Assembly (NCBI GenBank): GCA_050736615.1
Contig: JBOHWL010000192.1
Span: 1,865 to 65,864 of the forward strand
Direction of reading: 5' to 3'
DNA length: 64,000 nt
DNA from: Candidatus Binataceae bacterium
GTDB taxonomy: Bacteria; Desulfobacterota; Binatia; Binatales; Binataceae
Both the position numbers and the translations under genes were made by a program. Below, piece after piece: positions 712 through 7,337 of this stretch; positions within the stretch are counted from its first letter, which is position 1, and each line of letters begins with the position of its first letter. The notes beneath the pieces are model-generated. The model was not told where the DNA came from and made no database searches. It saw nothing but the letters and a program-made list of their open reading frames with translations.

Positions 712-2559
712 TTGAGCGCCGTGATTCGTTCAGCATTCTGCACTCATCCAGATCCCACGCACGAACTTGAGGAATCAGCTCTTCGCGTGCGCGGCATCGC
801 TATCTCGCCGCGGCTGTGGACGGTCTGTTTCCTGCTCGTTGTGACCAGTATCGGAGGCCTGATTTTCTTCTATAATTTGGGCGCGTACGGACTGTGGGAG
901 CCGGACGAGGCACGCTACGCGGAAATCGCGCGCGAAATGCTGGCGACCCATAACTTCGTTGTCCCTCATCTAAACTACGTCGATTACGTCGAAAAGCCGC
1001 CGCTGCTCTACTGGCTGACAGCCGCTTCGATGCACCTGTTTGGTCTGAACGAATTCGGCGCACGTCTGCCCAACGCAGCCGCCGCCATGGCTGGGCTGCT
1101 GGCGACCTTTGTCTTCGCCCTCAAGGCCTTCGACCGGCGCCGCGCGCTCATCGCCGGGGTGATACTGGCAACCAGCGGATTGTACGTCGTGATGGCGCAG
1201 GTGCTTACCACCGACATGCTGCTGACCGCCTTGCTTACCATCGCTCTGTTCGCGCTCTATCTGCATTGGCGCGATGGCGGCGCGTGGTGCTGGCTGATGT
1301 ACGCCGCGATGGCCCTGGCGGTCCTGACCAAGGGTCCGGTGGGCGTGGCGATTCCGCTGCTGGTTGGCTTGATTTTTTTGTGGTGGGAACGCGATCTTCG
1401 CGGGGCCATTCGGCGCTTCCATATTATCACCGGCATCCTTCTGACGGCCGCCATTTCCTTGCCCTGGTTCGTGGCGATGACGATGCGGGTGCGGGGTTAT
1501 TTCGCCTTCTACTTCATTGGTGAAAATATTCTCCGTTTTCTACAACCTGGCTACAGCCACACCGAGCCAATTTACTATTACCTTCCGGTGATCGCGCTGG
1601 GCGTTTTGCCGTGGACACTGCTGGCACCATTGATTTCGTGGCGAGGATTGAATGCGCATCCCGCGCGCCGCTTCTGCATCATCGCCGCCGCGGTTATCCT
1701 CGTTTTCTTTTCGCTCGCGCATGCGAAACTGATCCCCTACATAATGCCCGCCCTTCCACCGCTTGCCGTCGTCATGGGGGACGGGCTGGCAAACTTGCTT
1801 GAAAGCGAACGCGCCAATACCGCGCCCACCATGGGATTTGACCCACGGGTGCGCCGTTTTTGCATTAGCGCAGTCCTAATCGCAATCGCCGGCGCGGCGA
1901 TCCTCGAAGTATCGCTTCATGCGGCGGATTTTCGCAGTCCCTATGTCATAAGGGTGCGACCGGCACTCGAAGTGGCCGCCGCGATCGCGTTAGTCACGGG
2001 GGTGGTATGCTGGTGCGCGTTTTGGTCTGACAGACTCCGCTTCGGCCTGGCTGCGCTGATCGCGGCCACCACGGCGCTATACATCGTTTTCAGTTACGGG
2101 CGTCTGATGGCGACGCCATTACGGTCTTATGCGCATCTCGCTCGCACGATTGACGCGCGCGCTCCCAACGCGACCCTGGTATGCTATCCGCGCTATTTGC
2201 AATCCCTGCCGTTCTACACGCGCCGACGCGTGATCCTGGTTGGCGATAAAACCGAGCTAACTTTTGGCGCCGCGCGCGCCCCCGATGCAAATCAATATTT
2301 TTTTAAAAATCAAATCGGCTTGCTGAAGCTGTGGAACGAGCCACGCCAAACGGTGCTGGTGCTTGACCGCGCGGTTTTCCCCGGATTGAAGCGGCGCCTG
2401 GGTGCCTATGTCGTAATCGCCGCCGACCGCAAAAAAATCGCGGTCATGAAGCCGGCGCCCGCGCTCGCGACCGCTAAATCCAAAGACGGGCGAACCGGAG
2501 TTCACACGGTAGTCCGAGTCAAGCGGTCGCCTCAGGCGCGCCATTCGGATAACCATTAG
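712..2559 (+). CDS. ArnT/PMT-like glycosyltransferase family 39 (polyprenyl-phosphate-sugar dependent) integral membrane protein
   Basis: Carries the LWEPDEARYAEIAREM motif typical of COG1807/ArnT-like GT39/GT83. The N-terminal ~400 aa are multi-TM; the C-terminal ~200 aa are hydrophilic. An in-frame GTG at 787 is a plausible alternative start. Confidence 0.7.
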   Translation: MSAVIRSAFCTHPDPTHELEESALRVRGIAISPRLWTVCFLLVVTSIGGLIFFYNLGAYGLWEPDEARYAEIAREMLATHNFVVPHLNYVDYVEKPPLLYWLTAASMHLFGLNEFGARLPNAAAAMAGLLATFVFALKAFDRRRALIAGVILATSGLYVVMAQVLTTDMLLTALLTIALFALYLHWRDGGAWCWLMYAAMALAVLTKGPVGVAIPLLVGLIFLWWERDLRGAIRRFHIITGILLTAAISLPWFVAMTMRVRGYFAFYFIGENILRFLQPGYSHTEPIYYYLPVIALGVLPWTLLAPLISWRGLNAHPARRFCIIAAAVILVFFSLAHAKLIPYIMPALPPLAVVMGDGLANLLESERANTAPTMGFDPRVRRFCISAVLIAIAGAAILEVSLHAADFRSPYVIRVRPALEVAAAIALVTGVVCWCAFWSDRLRFGLAALIAATTALYIVFSYGRLMATPLRSYAHLARTIDARAPNATLVCYPRYLQSLPFYTRRRVILVGDKTELTFGAARAPDANQYFFKNQIGLLKLWNEPRQTVLVLDRAVFPGLKRRLGAYVVIAADRKKIAVMKPAPALATAKSKDGRTGVHTVVRVKRSPQARHSDNH

Positions 2560-2594
2560 CCTGCGGCCATCAAAGGCACTCGCCAGCACCATTT

Positions 2595-5284: not shown

Positions 5285-6442
5285 ATGAACGCGGTGGCGG
5301 CCCTGGCGGCCGCGGGTGTTCTGATTTCGCTGGGCTATTATGCGGCCGCGAGTGTGGCGGCGATTCGCTTCTGGTTCAGAACTTCCTCGCCAGCCGCACC
5401 GCTGCCGAAGATTGTCCCTCGTGTCGCGGTGCTGAAACCGCTCCACGGCCCCGGCAAGCATCTGTTCGAAAACCTCACGAGCTTTCTGGAAAGCGACTAT
5501 CCGCGCGTCGAATATATTTTTGGCATCACCGACTATGAAGACCGCGCGATCGACGTGCCACTCGCGCTGAAAGCGCAATATCATCTCGCGAATATCGCAT
5601 TGGTAATCGGGGAAGATGCCAACGCGGAGAATCCCAAAATCGCCAAGCTGATCAAAATGACCGAGCGCGAGTCGAAAGCGGAAATCTATGTGGTCAGTGA
5701 CGCGGATATCGCCGTTGAACCCGATTATCTCAAGCGGATCGTCACTGAACTGGGTACTGACGACGATACCGGGCTGGTGACTTGCGTCTATCGCGCACGT
5801 CCTGGCGGCGGCCTGGCGGCACGCTTCGAAGCGCTCGCGATCAACACCGACTTCGCGCCATTGGTGATGCTTTCGGCGGCAATCGAACCGATTCGCTACG
5901 CACTCGGCGCAACCGTGGCGGTCAAACGGCGCGCGCTCGAGGCTATCGGCGGTTTCCGCGCCCTCAAAGACAAGCTCGCCGACGATTATTTTTTAGGCCA
6001 GATGGCCGCCTGCCATGGCTTCCAGATAAAACTCTCCAGCGCGATCGTCTCCACTTCGTGCGAACATCGCAGCTTCGCCGACTTCTGGACGCATCAGTTG
6101 CGCTGGGCGCGTACCTATCGCACAGCGCGTAAACTCAGCCTCGGCACGATCCTGACCCAGGGGCCGTTCTGGGCGATTATCTTGATGTTGGCCTCGCGCT
6201 TCTCCCCGGTTTCCATTGCGGTCTTCTTCGGCGTTATCGCGGCTCGCCTCGGCATGTCGGCGCTGCTGATTTGGAAGGTGCTGGGCATGCCCGATCGGCT
6301 GCGCGATCTCTGGCTGGTGCCGTTCAAGGATCTGGTGATGACGGCAGTGTGGTTCGCCAGCCTGCTCAGCAACAAAGTCGTCTGGGGCGGCCGCGAGCTG
6401 GTGGTCGGAGCCGACGGCAGTATGCGCGAAGCGAATGGCTGA
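5285..6442 (+). CDS. family-2 glycosyltransferase, ceramide-glucosyltransferase-like / HpnI-like
   Basis: N-terminal TM, VVSDADIAVEPDY DxD-type motif and C-terminal TM helices. Adjacent to the radical SAM gene. Confidence 0.65.
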   Translation: MNAVAALAAAGVLISLGYYAAASVAAIRFWFRTSSPAAPLPKIVPRVAVLKPLHGPGKHLFENLTSFLESDYPRVEYIFGITDYEDRAIDVPLALKAQYHLANIALVIGEDANAENPKIAKLIKMTERESKAEIYVVSDADIAVEPDYLKRIVTELGTDDDTGLVTCVYRARPGGGLAARFEALAINTDFAPLVMLSAAIEPIRYALGATVAVKRRALEAIGGFRALKDKLADDYFLGQMAACHGFQIKLSSAIVSTSCEHRSFADFWTHQLRWARTYRTARKLSLGTILTQGPFWAIILMLASRFSPVSIAVFFGVIAARLGMSALLIWKVLGMPDRLRDLWLVPFKDLVMTAVWFASLLSNKVVWGGRELVVGADGSMREANG

Positions 6443-7337
6443 GCGCGGCGCGCTGCCGCTCTTTCTGCTGCTGGGATTGTTCGCGAGCTTTCTGCTGGCG
6501 TTCGGCCTGCTGATGATGAAAAGTTGCGCCGATCGCTTGCCGGTAGCGGCCGGCCGCGGGGCGCTGTGGGCGGTGGTGCGCTGGATTCGCGAACCTATCT
6601 GGAGCGGCGGGCTGACACTCCAAGCGTTAGGTTACACCCTCAGCGTCGTCGCCCTGGCGGGCGCGCCGGTCTCGCTGGTATCCGTGACGATGCAGGGCGG
6701 CATCGCACTGTTCGTGCTTTTCGCGGTGATTTTTTTGCATGAGCGCGCACGGCCGCTGGAATGGCTGGGGATTGGCGGAATTATCGCCGCCATCGCGATG
6801 CTCGCGGCCTCGTTGGATTCAGGCGCGGCGCAAGGCGGTATAGAGGTAGCCGCGCTCGAGGGATTCTCCGGCATCGCGGCGCTCAGCGCGCTCGCACCAT
6901 ATCTATCAACTCGCCTCCGAAACAGCGGCATCGCCCCCGCGATCGCATCAGGAGTTTTCTTTGGTGCGGGCGCGATCTACACCAAGGCAATGACCTATTC
7001 GTTTACCGGTACGCTTGAGCTGACAATCGCTATCAATGTGCTGTCCAGCCCGTATGTCTACCTGATCATCGTCACCAACATTATCGGCATCGTGTTGCTG
7101 CAGAATTCCTTTCATGCGGCCCGTGGACTTATCGTAATGCCGATTTCGTCAGCATTGTCGAATATCATGCCGATTTTGGGCGGCATCGCGGTTTTTGGCG
7201 AAAGCCTACCTTCACAGCCGTTTGACGCCGCGATGCGCGCGGCCGCCTTCGCCTTAACCATCGGAGCAAGCGCGCTGCTCGCCACTACCCGCGAAGACGC
7301 GGGAGTAATCGAGAACAAGGCCAACGCCACCGGCTAA
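6435..7337 (+). CDS. DMT-superfamily (EamA-like) transporter
   Basis: ~10 predicted TM helices with two EamA-like halves. The 8-bp overlap with the preceding GT2 gene suggests translational coupling. Confidence 0.55.
   Translation: MAERGALPLFLLLGLFASFLLAFGLLMMKSCADRLPVAAGRGALWAVVRWIREPIWSGGLTLQALGYTLSVVALAGAPVSLVSVTMQGGIALFVLFAVIFLHERARPLEWLGIGGIIAAIAMLAASLDSGAAQGGIEVAALEGFSGIAALSALAPYLSTRLRNSGIAPAIASGVFFGAGAIYTKAMTYSFTGTLELTIAINVLSSPYVYLIIVTNIIGIVLLQNSFHAARGLIVMPISSALSNIMPILGGIAVFGESLPSQPFDAAMRAAAFALTIGASALLATTREDAGVIENKANATG

What the first reader, a model, noticed from the sequence alone, without database searches (positions are those of the whole stretch)
712..7337. Hopanoid-associated-like tailoring module fused with an ArnT-like GT39, lacking HpnK
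The gene order is GT39(ArnT/PMT-like) - UPF0104(HpnL-like) - B12-radical-SAM(HpnJ-like) - GT2(HpnI-like) - EamA transporter. It is tightly packed and co-directional. In characterised systems HpnI (adds GlcNAc to bacteriohopanetetrol), HpnK (deacetylase) and HpnJ (ring contraction to cyclitol ether) act together. Here no YdjC-type deacetylase is present. Instead there is a polyprenyl-phosphate-sugar transferase and a DMT flippase-like protein. This suggests a variant pathway that decorates a hopanoid or another membrane lipid with a different sugar, possibly at the periplasmic face.
Basis: partly seen in the sequence, partly recalled or inferred. Interest (0 to 1): 0.55.

Follow-up and report, generated by a model that had tools for sequence, protein, structure and literature searches.

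The report
Hopanoid cyclitol genes beside ArnT-like transferase
An uncultured soil bacterium (Binataceae) keeps two hopanoid head-group genes (hpnJ, hpnI) and a small transporter in one tight cluster with a lipid A-type sugar transferase and a flippase-like protein; this is a new arrangement of known parts, not a new pathway.

Summary
Five tightly packed genes on the + strand (712-7337) encode an ArnT-family GT-C, a UPF0104/MprF-TM flippase-like protein, HpnJ, HpnI and a 10-TM DMT protein.

- **Curated models:** HpnJ scores 715.6 bits against a cut-off of 577.6. HpnI scores 331.8 against 310. The UPF0104 protein is not HpnL (17 bits against 195.65).
- **Organism:** Candidatus Binataceae.
- **Conservation in 80 species-representative loci:** HpnJ-HpnI-DMT is contiguous in 60 of 69 loci. 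The ArnT-like/UPF0104 pair lies upstream in 46 of 66 and moves as a separate unit.
- **Link to Arn genes:** in another Binatia-like lineage, HpnJ follows a formyltransferase, an ArnD-like gene and an ArnT-like gene.
- **DMT partner elsewhere:** in Acidobacteria-like clusters that carry core hopanoid genes, HpnJ is followed by ArnE/F-sized half-DMT genes in 30 of 51 loci. The transporter is therefore a general HpnJ partner.
- **Missing HpnK:** the absence is local only. A YdjC/HpnK-type gene lies about 6 kb from hpnJ in one Binataceae genome. Genomes with hpnI and hpnJ but no hpnK are already documented in Acidobacteria.
- **Open point:** no SHC, HpnH or HpnC/D/E gene lies within 10 kb of hpnJ in 104 Binatia-clade loci. 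I could not test whole genomes.

Most likely two amino-sugar lipid modules sit together: one makes hopanoid cyclitol ether, the other modifies lipid A. Interest is moderate.

The parts
36..566 (+). C-terminal part of a gamma-glutamyltransferase, cut by the window edge. It is a conserved upstream neighbour and probably not part of the pathway.
   Evidence: PF01019 E = 2.5e-50. A GGT gene lies directly upstream on the same strand in 34 of 51 Binataceae loci that carry the ArnT-like gene.
712..2559 (+). ArnT-family GT-C glycosyltransferase that uses a polyprenyl-phosphate-sugar donor, with its active site on the periplasmic side. The real start is probably about 25-35 codons into the ORF.
   Evidence: PMT_2, PMT and Arnt_C domains. 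NF009784 ArnT scores 204 bits, below the cut-off of 567. Full-length alignment to C. metallidurans ArnT 5EZM, E = 3.6e-49. The equivalents of D55, E84/K85, D158, R270 and Y345 are invariant in 17 family members.
2595..3593 (+). UPF0104 / MprF-TM-type flippase-like membrane protein. It is not HpnL.
   Evidence: PF03706 E = 5.5e-35. TIGR00374 scores 75.3 bits, above the cut-off of 43.2. TIGR03476 HpnL scores 17 bits against a cut-off of 195.65. It always travels with the ArnT-like gene.
3703..5160 (+). HpnJ, a B12-binding radical SAM enzyme. It is assigned the ring contraction of bacteriohopanetetrol-glucosamine to the cyclitol ether.
   Evidence: TIGR03471 scores 715.6 bits against a cut-off of 577.6. 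The cluster motif C210-x3-C214-x2-C217 is invariant. It is 83-96% identical across 80 Binataceae species.
5285..6442 (+). HpnI, a GT2/GT21 glycosyltransferase that adds GlcNAc to bacteriohopanetetrol.
   Evidence: TIGR03472 scores 331.8 bits against a cut-off of 310. PF13506 E = 1.6e-46. It lies directly downstream of HpnJ in nearly all Binataceae loci.
6435..7337 (+). 10-TM DMT/EamA-type membrane protein, a candidate flippase or exporter for the amino-sugar or cyclitol lipid.
   Evidence: Weak matches to EamA (21.4 bits) and DMT_1 (28.1 bits), both below cut-off. Its start overlaps the hpnI stop by 8 nt. hhalign gives 96% probability, E = 3e-9, against the half-size EamA genes that follow hpnJ in hopanoid clusters. 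HpnJ-HpnI-DMT is contiguous in 60 of 69 loci.

Best explanation
The region holds two neighbouring modules, probably co-expressed, that put amino-sugar-type head groups on envelope lipids of a diderm Binataceae bacterium.

**Module B (3703-7337).** HpnI attaches GlcNAc to bacteriohopanetetrol at the cytoplasmic face. An unlinked YdjC/HpnK-type deacetylase, or an analogue, removes the acetyl group. HpnJ contracts the glucosamine ring to the cyclitol ether. The DMT protein then moves the product, or its precursor, across the inner membrane, much as ArnE/F moves undecaprenyl-phosphate-L-Ara4N.

**Module A (712-3593).** The ArnT-family GT-C takes a sugar from a polyprenyl-phosphate carrier and transfers it at the periplasmic face. 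The sugar is most likely an amino sugar of the L-Ara4N type, and the acceptor is most likely a lipid A phosphate. The UPF0104 protein flips the carrier.

The two modules sit together because they serve the same physiology, namely lowering the negative charge and stiffening the outer membrane. They do not share a substrate.

**Shown:** family assignments, conserved catalytic residues, synteny statistics.
**Inferred:** the substrates, the flipping steps, co-transcription, and the presence of the core hopanoid pathway elsewhere in the genome.
For: - HpnJ and HpnI score above the curated cut-offs. Binatia-clade HpnJ proteins score 690-727 bits, against 755-792 bits for HpnJ proteins that sit inside clusters with core hopanoid genes.
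- The ArnT-like protein aligns over its full length to ArnT 5EZM, with catalytic and carrier-phosphate residues invariant.
- The two units are separable. HpnJ-HpnI-DMT is contiguous in 60 of 69 loci. Among 66 loci with at least 4 kb upstream, the ArnT/UPF0104 pair is directly upstream in 29, upstream with inserted DNA in 17, elsewhere in 1 and absent in 19. In L040 the pair is inverted and downstream.
- In L085, HpnJ follows a stand-alone ArnA-type formyltransferase (393 bits, above the cut-off of 316), an ArnD-like deformylase (241.6 bits) and an ArnT-like gene (240 bits).
- Tandem half-size EamA genes follow hpnJ in 30 of 51 outgroup loci. Their best named hits are ArnE/ArnF, though weak.
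- Evidence that the rest of the hopanoid side-chain pathway exists in this lineage:
  - L063 carries a YdjC/HpnK-type gene, 37-48% identical over its full length to YdjC genes adjacent to hpnJ elsewhere (PDB ChbG E = 1e-13).
  - Next to it lies an MTAN/HpnG-like gene.
  - L084 carries HpnM (196 bits, above the cut-off of 160).
- A survey of 15,541 species found HpnI and HpnJ domains only in genomes that also have SHC and HpnH (bioRxiv 10.1101/2025.07.29.667474).
Against: - No SHC, HpnH or HpnC/D/E gene lies within 10 kb of hpnJ in 83 Binataceae loci, 21 further Binatia-clade loci or the 64-kb window (HpnA was queried only against the 83 loci and the window). At least 17 of 62 outgroup loci carry HpnH, 12 carry HpnE and 3 carry SHC. 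The hopanoid substrate is therefore not demonstrated for this organism.
- I found no formyltransferase or ArnD homologue in the window, and no ArnB, ArnC or ArnA-dehydrogenase emerged from the family scans. Not every ORF was scanned.
- The ArnT-like protein is far below the ArnT equivalog cut-off (204 bits against 567), so donor and acceptor are unknown.
- HpnJ recurs next to ArnT-like genes in three different arrangements within the Binatia clade (the window type, L085 and L096). This could mean a shared pathway rather than shared regulation.
- All 80 genome loci come from one family, so conserved synteny may partly reflect common descent.
Confidence: 0.55

Rival explanations
1. All five genes form one integrated pathway. 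HpnI and HpnJ build an amino-sugar or cyclitol hopanoid at the cytoplasmic face. The DMT and/or UPF0104 protein flips it. The ArnT-like GT-C then adds a further sugar to the hopanoid head group in the periplasm, giving a new composite bacteriohopanepolyol.
For: The genes are tightly packed and co-directional. The ArnT-like gene lies next to hpnJ in three different arrangements within the Binatia clade (window type, L085, L096) and once beside an SHC-containing cluster (L123). A flippase-like gene accompanies each enzyme unit.
Against: The pair is missing from the locus in 19 of 66 Binataceae loci and moves independently. ArnT-family enzymes with these conserved residues are known to act on lipid A phosphates, and a cyclitol ether has no phosphate (family knowledge). 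In L085 the partners are L-Ara4N-type genes. The L123 adjacency is a single case out of 62 outgroup loci.
Confidence: 0.2
2. The pathway does not act on hopanoids. In Binatia the HpnI- and HpnJ-like enzymes act on another lipid carrier, either a polyprenyl phosphate or a glycerolipid. The ArnT-like enzyme then transfers the resulting glucosamine-derived amino-cyclitol to lipid A or another envelope acceptor.
For: None of 104 Binatia-clade loci has a core hopanoid gene near hpnJ, whereas such genes are frequent near hpnJ in outgroups. Binatia-clade HpnJ is the most divergent branch on the curated model, at 690-727 bits against 755-792. In L085 hpnJ sits with formyltransferase, ArnD-like and ArnT-like genes and no hpnI. 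The few Binatia genomes surveyed in the literature lack HpnH (Table S5).
Against: HpnJ and HpnI pass the equivalog cut-offs. HpnK-type and HpnG-like genes lie near the cluster in L063, and HpnM in L084. HpnI and HpnJ domains have so far been reported only in SHC+ HpnH+ genomes. GT21-type enzymes are known to glycosylate lipid alcohols, not polyprenyl phosphates (family knowledge).
Confidence: 0.1
3. The adjacency is inherited synteny with no functional meaning. An ordinary lipid A L-Ara4N transferase with its flippase happens to lie next to an ordinary hpnJ-hpnI operon in the Binataceae ancestor.
For: All 80 genome loci come from one family. The pair is absent or displaced in a large minority of loci. 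No shared regulatory element was found: promoter- and terminator-like sites are at chance level and there is no Rfam hit.
Against: The adjacency persists while the ArnT-like, UPF0104, HpnI and DMT proteins have diverged to about 50-60% identity. Independent arrangements join ArnT-like genes with hpnJ in other lineages (L085, L096).
Confidence: 0.15

Closest known systems
hpnI-hpnK-hpnJ pathway for bacteriohopanetetrol cyclitol ether (Burkholderia cenocepacia, Schmerk et al. 2015, as summarised in PMC12583986 and PMC13459092)
   Same: HpnI and HpnJ are present, adjacent and above the curated cut-offs. HpnJ has the B12-binding domain and the radical SAM CxxxCxxC motif.
   Different: hpnK is not in the cluster. 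The order is J-I followed by a DMT gene. No shc or hpnH gene is nearby. In Alphaproteobacteria hpnI, hpnK and hpnJ are all present or all absent, and closely linked (PMC12583986).
hpnI+ hpnJ+ hpnK- genotype of subdivision 1 and 3 Acidobacteria (PMC5462960)
   Same: hpnI and hpnJ occur without a linked hpnK. In my Acidobacteria-like metagenome loci hpnJ is also followed by DMT-type genes.
   Different: There hpnJ is embedded in or next to hpnC/D/E, hpnA, hpnG and shc. The DMT is split into two ArnE/F-sized halves. No ArnT-like/UPF0104 pair is present.
arn (pmrHFIJKLM) lipid A L-Ara4N pathway: ArnT with the ArnE/ArnF flippase, ArnD and the ArnA formyltransferase domain
   Same: The first gene is a full-length ArnT homologue with conserved catalytic residues and the Arnt_C domain. 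The logic is the same: an N-acylated amino sugar is placed on a lipid, deacylated, flipped by a small DMT, then used in the periplasm. L085 combines formyltransferase, ArnD-like and ArnT-like genes with hpnJ.
   Different: The score is below the ArnT equivalog cut-off (204 bits against 567). The zinc-binding histidines of 5EZM are not conserved. I found no ArnB, ArnC or ArnA-dehydrogenase in the window. The adjacent flippase-like partner is UPF0104 rather than ArnE/F.
MprF flippase (TM) domain / UPF0104, including the hopanoid-associated HpnL (TIGR03476)
   Same: The protein matches PF03706 and TIGR00374, a 'flippase-like domain-containing protein'. Like HpnL it is a UPF0104 protein next to hpnI/hpnJ.
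   Different: There is no synthase domain. It fails the HpnL model (17 bits against 195.65). A sequence profile finds no PDB relative. It is coupled to the ArnT-like gene, not to hpnJ.

Membership tests
HpnJ (TIGR03471) | Score above the curated equivalog cut-off | tested here: met
   715.6 bits against 577.6.
HpnJ (TIGR03471) | B12-binding domain plus radical SAM core with a CxxxCxxC cluster motif | tested here: met
   PF02310 and PF04055. C210, C214 and C217 are invariant.
HpnJ (TIGR03471) | Occurs in a genome, and often a locus, with shc and hpnH | tested here: inconclusive
   No such gene within 10 kb in 104 Binatia-clade loci or in the window.
HpnJ (TIGR03471) | Converts bacteriohopanetetrol-glucosamine to the cyclitol ether | not testable with these tools
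   Needs lipid analysis or an enzyme assay.
HpnI (TIGR03472) | Score above the curated equivalog cut-off, with a GT2/GT21 fold | tested here: met
   331.8 bits against 310, a narrow margin. PF13506 E = 1.6e-46.
HpnL (TIGR03476) | Score above the curated cut-off | tested here: not met
   17 bits against 195.65. Only the generic TIGR00374 model passes.
HpnK (YdjC-type deacetylase) | Present in the cluster or the window | tested here: not met
   A DDFG-motif scan and tblastn with seven HpnK-type queries found nothing in the window.
HpnK (YdjC-type deacetylase) | Present in the lineage | tested here: met
   L063 17601-18677 (-) matches YdjC-family structures (7VI8 E = 1.2e-13). It is 37-48% identical over its full length to YdjC genes adjacent to hpnJ elsewhere.
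ArnT (NF009784; CAZy GT83, from my own knowledge) | Score above the curated equivalog cut-off | tested here: not met
   204 bits against 567.
ArnT (NF009784; CAZy GT83, from my own knowledge) | Full-length GT-C fold with the Arnt_C domain and conserved catalytic and carrier-phosphate residues | tested here: met
   5EZM E = 3.6e-49 over residues 36-581. The equivalents of D55, E84/K85, D158, R270 and Y345 are invariant. The zinc histidines 265 and 267 are not conserved.
ArnT (NF009784; CAZy GT83, from my own knowledge) | Accompanied by genes that make the L-Ara4N donor (ArnB, ArnC, ArnA, ArnD) | tested here: inconclusive
   tblastn found no formyltransferase or ArnD homologue in the window. In L085 a formyltransferase and an ArnD-like gene are adjacent. 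ArnB and ArnC were not searched for specifically.
ArnE/ArnF flippase | Score above the curated cut-off (92 for ArnE, 99 for ArnF) | tested here: not met
   The window DMT has no ArnE/F hit. The half-size EamA genes in outgroups score 16-21 bits. The resemblance is in size, tandem arrangement and superfamily only.
MprF flippase domain (PF03706) | Pfam gathering score | tested here: met
   121.7 bits against 33.4. No lysyl-PG synthase domain is present.

The most novel reading that the evidence does not exclude
The Binatia HpnJ and HpnI-like enzymes may work together with the ArnT-like transferase. Two readings remain open. In one, a glucosamine-derived amino-cyclitol is built on a lipid carrier, flipped by the DMT or UPF0104 protein, and transferred to lipid A. 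In the other, the ArnT-like enzyme glycosylates the hopanoid cyclitol ether in the periplasm. Either would be an envelope glycolipid not described before and would give a radical SAM ring-contraction enzyme a role outside hopanoid chemistry. Separately, the DMT proteins that follow hpnJ in two distant phyla may be the missing flippase for composite hopanoids.
Probability: 0.12. Interest if true: 0.8.

Novelty: new variant of a known kind. Interest (0 to 1): 0.4.

Why it matters
Composite hopanoids such as the cyclitol ether are widely used biomarkers and membrane stabilisers. Two things about them remain unknown: how they cross the inner membrane, and which accessory genes belong to their pathway.

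This locus and its relatives point to testable candidates.

- A DMT/EamA partner of HpnJ is conserved in Binataceae and in Acidobacteria-like hopanoid clusters.
- Within Binatia, hpnJ recurs next to Arn-type lipid A modification genes. This suggests that hopanoid amino head groups and lipid A amino sugars are deployed together.

The locus also extends hpnI/hpnJ to an uncultured soil phylum for which no hopanoid data exist. The individual enzymes are already recognised by standard annotation, so the gain is in context, not in a new enzyme class.

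Tried and rejected
- **Regulatory RNA or signals.** Rfam found no hit at E <= 1 in 1-9000. Promoter- and terminator-like sites are at chance level.
- **SHC in the same genome.**
  - The exact HpnJ protein is not in the contig index.
  - The genome scan returned only 80 Binataceae loci, each with 10-kb flanks.
The query is valid, since it hit L123, L147 and L158 at 41-45% identity. Real SHC, HpnH, HpnC/D/E and HpnA sequences from L115 and L147 also found nothing.
  - I walked from a Binatia HpnM (L084) to its neighbours in two genomes and found no SHC.
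- **Literature.** No paper links Binatia or Binatota with hopanoids, and none links ArnT with hopanoid clusters. Table S5 of the Belin-lab preprint covers only five Binatia genomes, none from Binatales.
- **UPF0104 against solved structures.** No hit by single sequence or by profile.
- **DMT profile against PDB.** Only marginal NIPA2 hits.
- **Methyltransferase family f24 and radical SAM/SPASM family f47**, upstream of hpnJ in loci that lack the ArnT-like gene. They are not HpnK or HpnH.
- **The 810-aa HAE3/MMPL protein at 21562-23994** did not match the HpnN model.
- **A clustering artefact.** My first ORF clustering merged GGT with the ArnT-like family, which looked like tandem ArnT genes. 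I corrected this with a GGT-specific tblastn.

Full report
**1. What is in the sequence**

Five ORFs lie on the + strand with short gaps. They are 712-2559, 2595-3593, 3703-5160, 5285-6442 and 6435-7337. A convergent CoA-transferase gene (7334-8524, - strand) closes the cluster. The tail of a gamma-glutamyltransferase gene (36-566) precedes it.

Pfam and NCBIfam give these assignments:

| ORF | Assignment | Key scores |
|---|---|---|
| 712-2559 | ArnT-like GT-C | PMT_2, PMT and Arnt_C domains; NF009784 ArnT 204 bits, cut-off 567 |
| 2595-3593 | UPF0104, flippase-like | PF03706 E = 5.5e-35; TIGR00374 75.3 bits, cut-off 43.2 |
| 3703-5160 | HpnJ | TIGR03471 715.6 bits, cut-off 577.6 |
| 5285-6442 | HpnI | TIGR03472 331.8 bits, cut-off 310 |
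| 6435-7337 | DMT/EamA | weak matches, below cut-off |

At a relaxed threshold the UPF0104 protein scores only 17 bits on the HpnL model TIGR03476, whose cut-off is 195.65. It belongs to the same superfamily as HpnL but is not HpnL.

The first ORF has no ATG in its first 35 codons, and its homologues cover only 84-95% of it. The true start is therefore probably somewhat downstream of 712.

**2. Organism and the rest of the window**

The nearest homologues of the ArnT-like and HpnJ proteins are named Candidatus Binataceae or Binatia, or carry the older label 'Deltaproteobacteria bacterium'.

The other 57 kb of the window encode:
- F420-dependent oxidoreductases;
- a cytochrome b and aa3 oxidase cluster;
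- an HAE3/MMPL transporter that does not match HpnN;
- a complete type VI secretion cluster.

The window holds no shc, hpnH, hpnC/D/E, hpnA or YdjC/hpnK-type gene.

**3. Conservation**

A scan of one genome per GTDB species returned 80 Binataceae loci. Across them HpnJ is 83-96% identical to the window protein. The other four proteins are only about 45-60% identical, apart from the near-identical L004.

- HpnJ-HpnI-DMT is contiguous in 60 of 69 loci that have enough downstream sequence.
- Among 66 loci with at least 4 kb upstream, the ArnT-like/UPF0104 pair is directly upstream in 29, upstream with inserted genes in 17, elsewhere in the locus in 1 and absent in 19.
- In L040 the pair is inverted and lies downstream.

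The cluster is therefore two units: a core triad and a movable pair. A GGT gene precedes the pair in 34 of 51 loci.

**4. The ArnT-like protein**

It aligns over its full length with C. metallidurans ArnT (5EZM, E = 3.6e-49). The 5EZM chain numbering is offset by three from the published numbering.

In a 17-member alignment that includes the ArnT-like protein of L085, these residues are invariant:
- the PDE motif (D55);
- EKPP (E84/K85);
- D158;
- R270;
- the K...Y pair around Y345.

The two zinc-binding histidines of 5EZM are replaced. This is a working polyprenyl-phosphate-sugar GT-C of the ArnT family, with unknown donor and acceptor.

**5. Comparison outside Binataceae**

A metagenome scan gave 8 Binataceae-like loci, 13 loci with HpnJ 60-80% identical to the window ('mid' loci), and 62 outgroup loci below 60%. 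L084, from a MAG named Candidatus Binatia, falls in the mid group.

*Outgroups.* They look like subdivision 1 Acidobacteria. They carry the Zn-alcohol-dehydrogenase 'ug2' gene, HpnC/D/E, HpnA, an HpnG-like gene and SHC, matching PMC5462960. Seventeen have HpnH, 12 have HpnE and 3 have SHC within the flank. None of the 104 Binatia-clade loci has any of these genes. This contrast is the main unexplained point.

*The DMT partner.* In 30 of 51 outgroup loci hpnJ is followed directly by small EamA-type genes of 126-176 aa, and 28 of those have a tandem pair. Their best named matches are ArnE and ArnF, at only 16-21 bits. A profile of the Binataceae DMT matches a profile of these half-size proteins with 96% probability, E = 3e-9. 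In mid locus L088 a 335-aa DMT follows hpnJ directly. The transporter is therefore a general companion of HpnJ. I found no mention of this in the papers I read. The EamA domain appears only in a supplementary list of domains near shc.

*Arn genes.* In L085 (HpnJ 72% identical to the window) the order is formyltransferase, ArnD-like deformylase, ArnT-like, HpnJ. The scores are NF005414 393 bits (cut-off 316), ArnD 241.6 bits and ArnT 240 bits. All four are co-directional and tightly packed, and no hpnI is adjacent. In L096 a divergent ArnT-like gene faces hpnJ-hpnI. Among outgroups only L123 has a GT-C next to hpnJ. The link between ArnT-like genes and HpnJ is thus mainly a Binatia trait, but it occurs in at least three arrangements.

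**6. The missing HpnK**

A scan for the YdjC N-terminal DDFG motif found a family of about 280-300 aa proteins.
- It is directly adjacent to hpnJ or hpnJ-hpnI in L089, L094, L142 and L159.
- It lies about 6 kb downstream of hpnJ-hpnI in Binataceae locus L063.

The L063 protein matches YdjC-family structures (ChbG 7VI8, E = 1.2e-13). It is 37-48% identical over its full length to the hpnJ-adjacent copies.

Divergently transcribed next to it is an MTA/SAH-nucleosidase-family gene (PDB E = 3.6e-14). It aligns end to end, at 30% identity, with the HpnG-like gene of the acidobacterial cluster.

Subdivision 1 and 3 Acidobacteria are reported to have hpnI and hpnJ but no hpnK (PMC5462960). The absence of hpnK from this cluster is therefore neither unique nor evidence of a different chemistry.

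**7. Is the substrate a hopanoid?**

For:
- HpnI and HpnJ pass the equivalog-level cut-offs.
- HpnK-type and HpnG-like genes are present in L063.
- HpnM is present in L084 (196 bits, cut-off 160).
- In 15,541 species, HpnI and HpnJ domains were found only in SHC+ HpnH+ genomes.

Against:
- Core hopanoid genes are never linked to hpnJ in the 104 Binatia-clade loci.
- Binatia-clade HpnJ scores lower on the curated model, at 690-727 bits against 755-792.
- The five Binatia genomes in the published survey lack HpnH, though none of them is from Binatales.

I put the probability that Binataceae make extended hopanoids at about 0.85.

**8. Mechanism**

My best reading is two modules with parallel logic.

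- HpnI, an unlinked deacetylase and HpnJ make the cyclitol-ether hopanoid at the cytoplasmic face. The DMT protein moves it across the membrane.
- The ArnT-like enzyme, with its UPF0104 flippase-like partner, decorates lipid A from a polyprenyl-phosphate-linked amino sugar.

Co-location would then reflect a shared role in adjusting outer-membrane charge and packing. That hopanoids and L-Ara4N both contribute to polymyxin and acid tolerance in Burkholderia is my own background knowledge, not something I verified here.

Three rivals are not excluded: a single integrated pathway in which the ArnT-like enzyme acts on the hopanoid, a non-hopanoid pathway, and meaningless inherited synteny.

HpnJ has no solved structure. 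Its nearest solved relative is the aminoglycoside-modifying radical SAM enzyme AprD4 (6FD2, E = 5e-19). This fits sugar-radical chemistry better than methylation.

**9. Verdict**

The cluster is a new arrangement of known modules in an uncultured phylum.

The most useful by-products are the conserved HpnJ-DMT partnership and the recurrent HpnJ-Arn adjacency within Binatia. The claim of a distinct HpnK-independent pathway is not supported. The decisive test, a core hopanoid pathway in the same genome, remains to be done.

Noticed in passing
window 27152-52344: A complete type VI secretion cluster: TssM, TssL, TssK, VgrG, ClpV, TssG, TssF, TssC and TssA. Two large pentapeptide-repeat proteins (35694-36761 and 36746-39484) lie directly after VgrG and could be effectors.
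   Followed up: no
L109-L166 (outgroup metagenome loci), e.g. L147 11410-12317: In Acidobacteria-like hopanoid clusters hpnJ is followed by a tandem pair of 126-176 aa half-size EamA/DMT genes. This holds in 30 of 51 loci, 28 of them with two genes. The genes are ArnE/ArnF-like in size and arrangement, and the hopanoid papers I read do not mention them.
   Followed up: partly
L085 6283-11422: A stand-alone ArnA-type formyltransferase, an ArnD-like deformylase, an ArnT-like gene and HpnJ form one co-directional block in another Binatia-like lineage. No hpnI is adjacent.
   Followed up: partly
L063 17601-19426: A YdjC/HpnK-type gene and, divergently transcribed from it, an MTAN/HpnG-like gene lie 6-8 kb downstream of hpnJ-hpnI in a Binataceae genome. 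The YdjC gene overlaps the next gene, an FAD-monooxygenase, by 4 nt.
   Followed up: partly
L126 7431-8267 and equivalent genes in L104, L105, L108, L115, L157, L160, L161, L162: A BstC-like gene lies next to hpnH-hpnJ in a second outgroup clade. BstC is the sterol-transporter outer-membrane protein (NF045602); the score is 103 bits, below the cut-off of 350. It might be a hopanoid transport analogue.
   Followed up: no
L084 276-872 / L167 10001-11575: An HpnM (TIGR03481, 196 bits, cut-off 160) and MlaA pair stands alone in a Binatia genome, about 9 kb from hpnJ and not in a hopanoid cluster. A similar pair occurs in L168.
   Followed up: partly
L167 16069-18650: A GT2 (235 aa), LAB_N (96 aa) and PMT_2 GT-C (524 aa) trio. 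This is a second polyprenyl-phosphate-sugar system in the same Binatia genome.
   Followed up: no
window 9923-11696: Two divergently oriented TIGR03619 F420-dependent LLM oxidoreductases (209 and 233 bits, cut-off 166.9). This suggests F420 use in this bacterium.
   Followed up: no
window 36-566 and Binataceae loci: A gamma-glutamyltransferase gene lies directly upstream of the ArnT-like gene, on the same strand, in 34 of 51 loci. Whether it belongs to the unit is unknown.
   Followed up: partly
L070, L072, L073, L076, L077, L078, L082: In Binataceae loci that lack the upstream ArnT-like pair, or have it displaced, a class I SAM methyltransferase (family f24, 259 aa) lies upstream of hpnJ, directly so in most of these loci. 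Its function is unknown.
   Followed up: no
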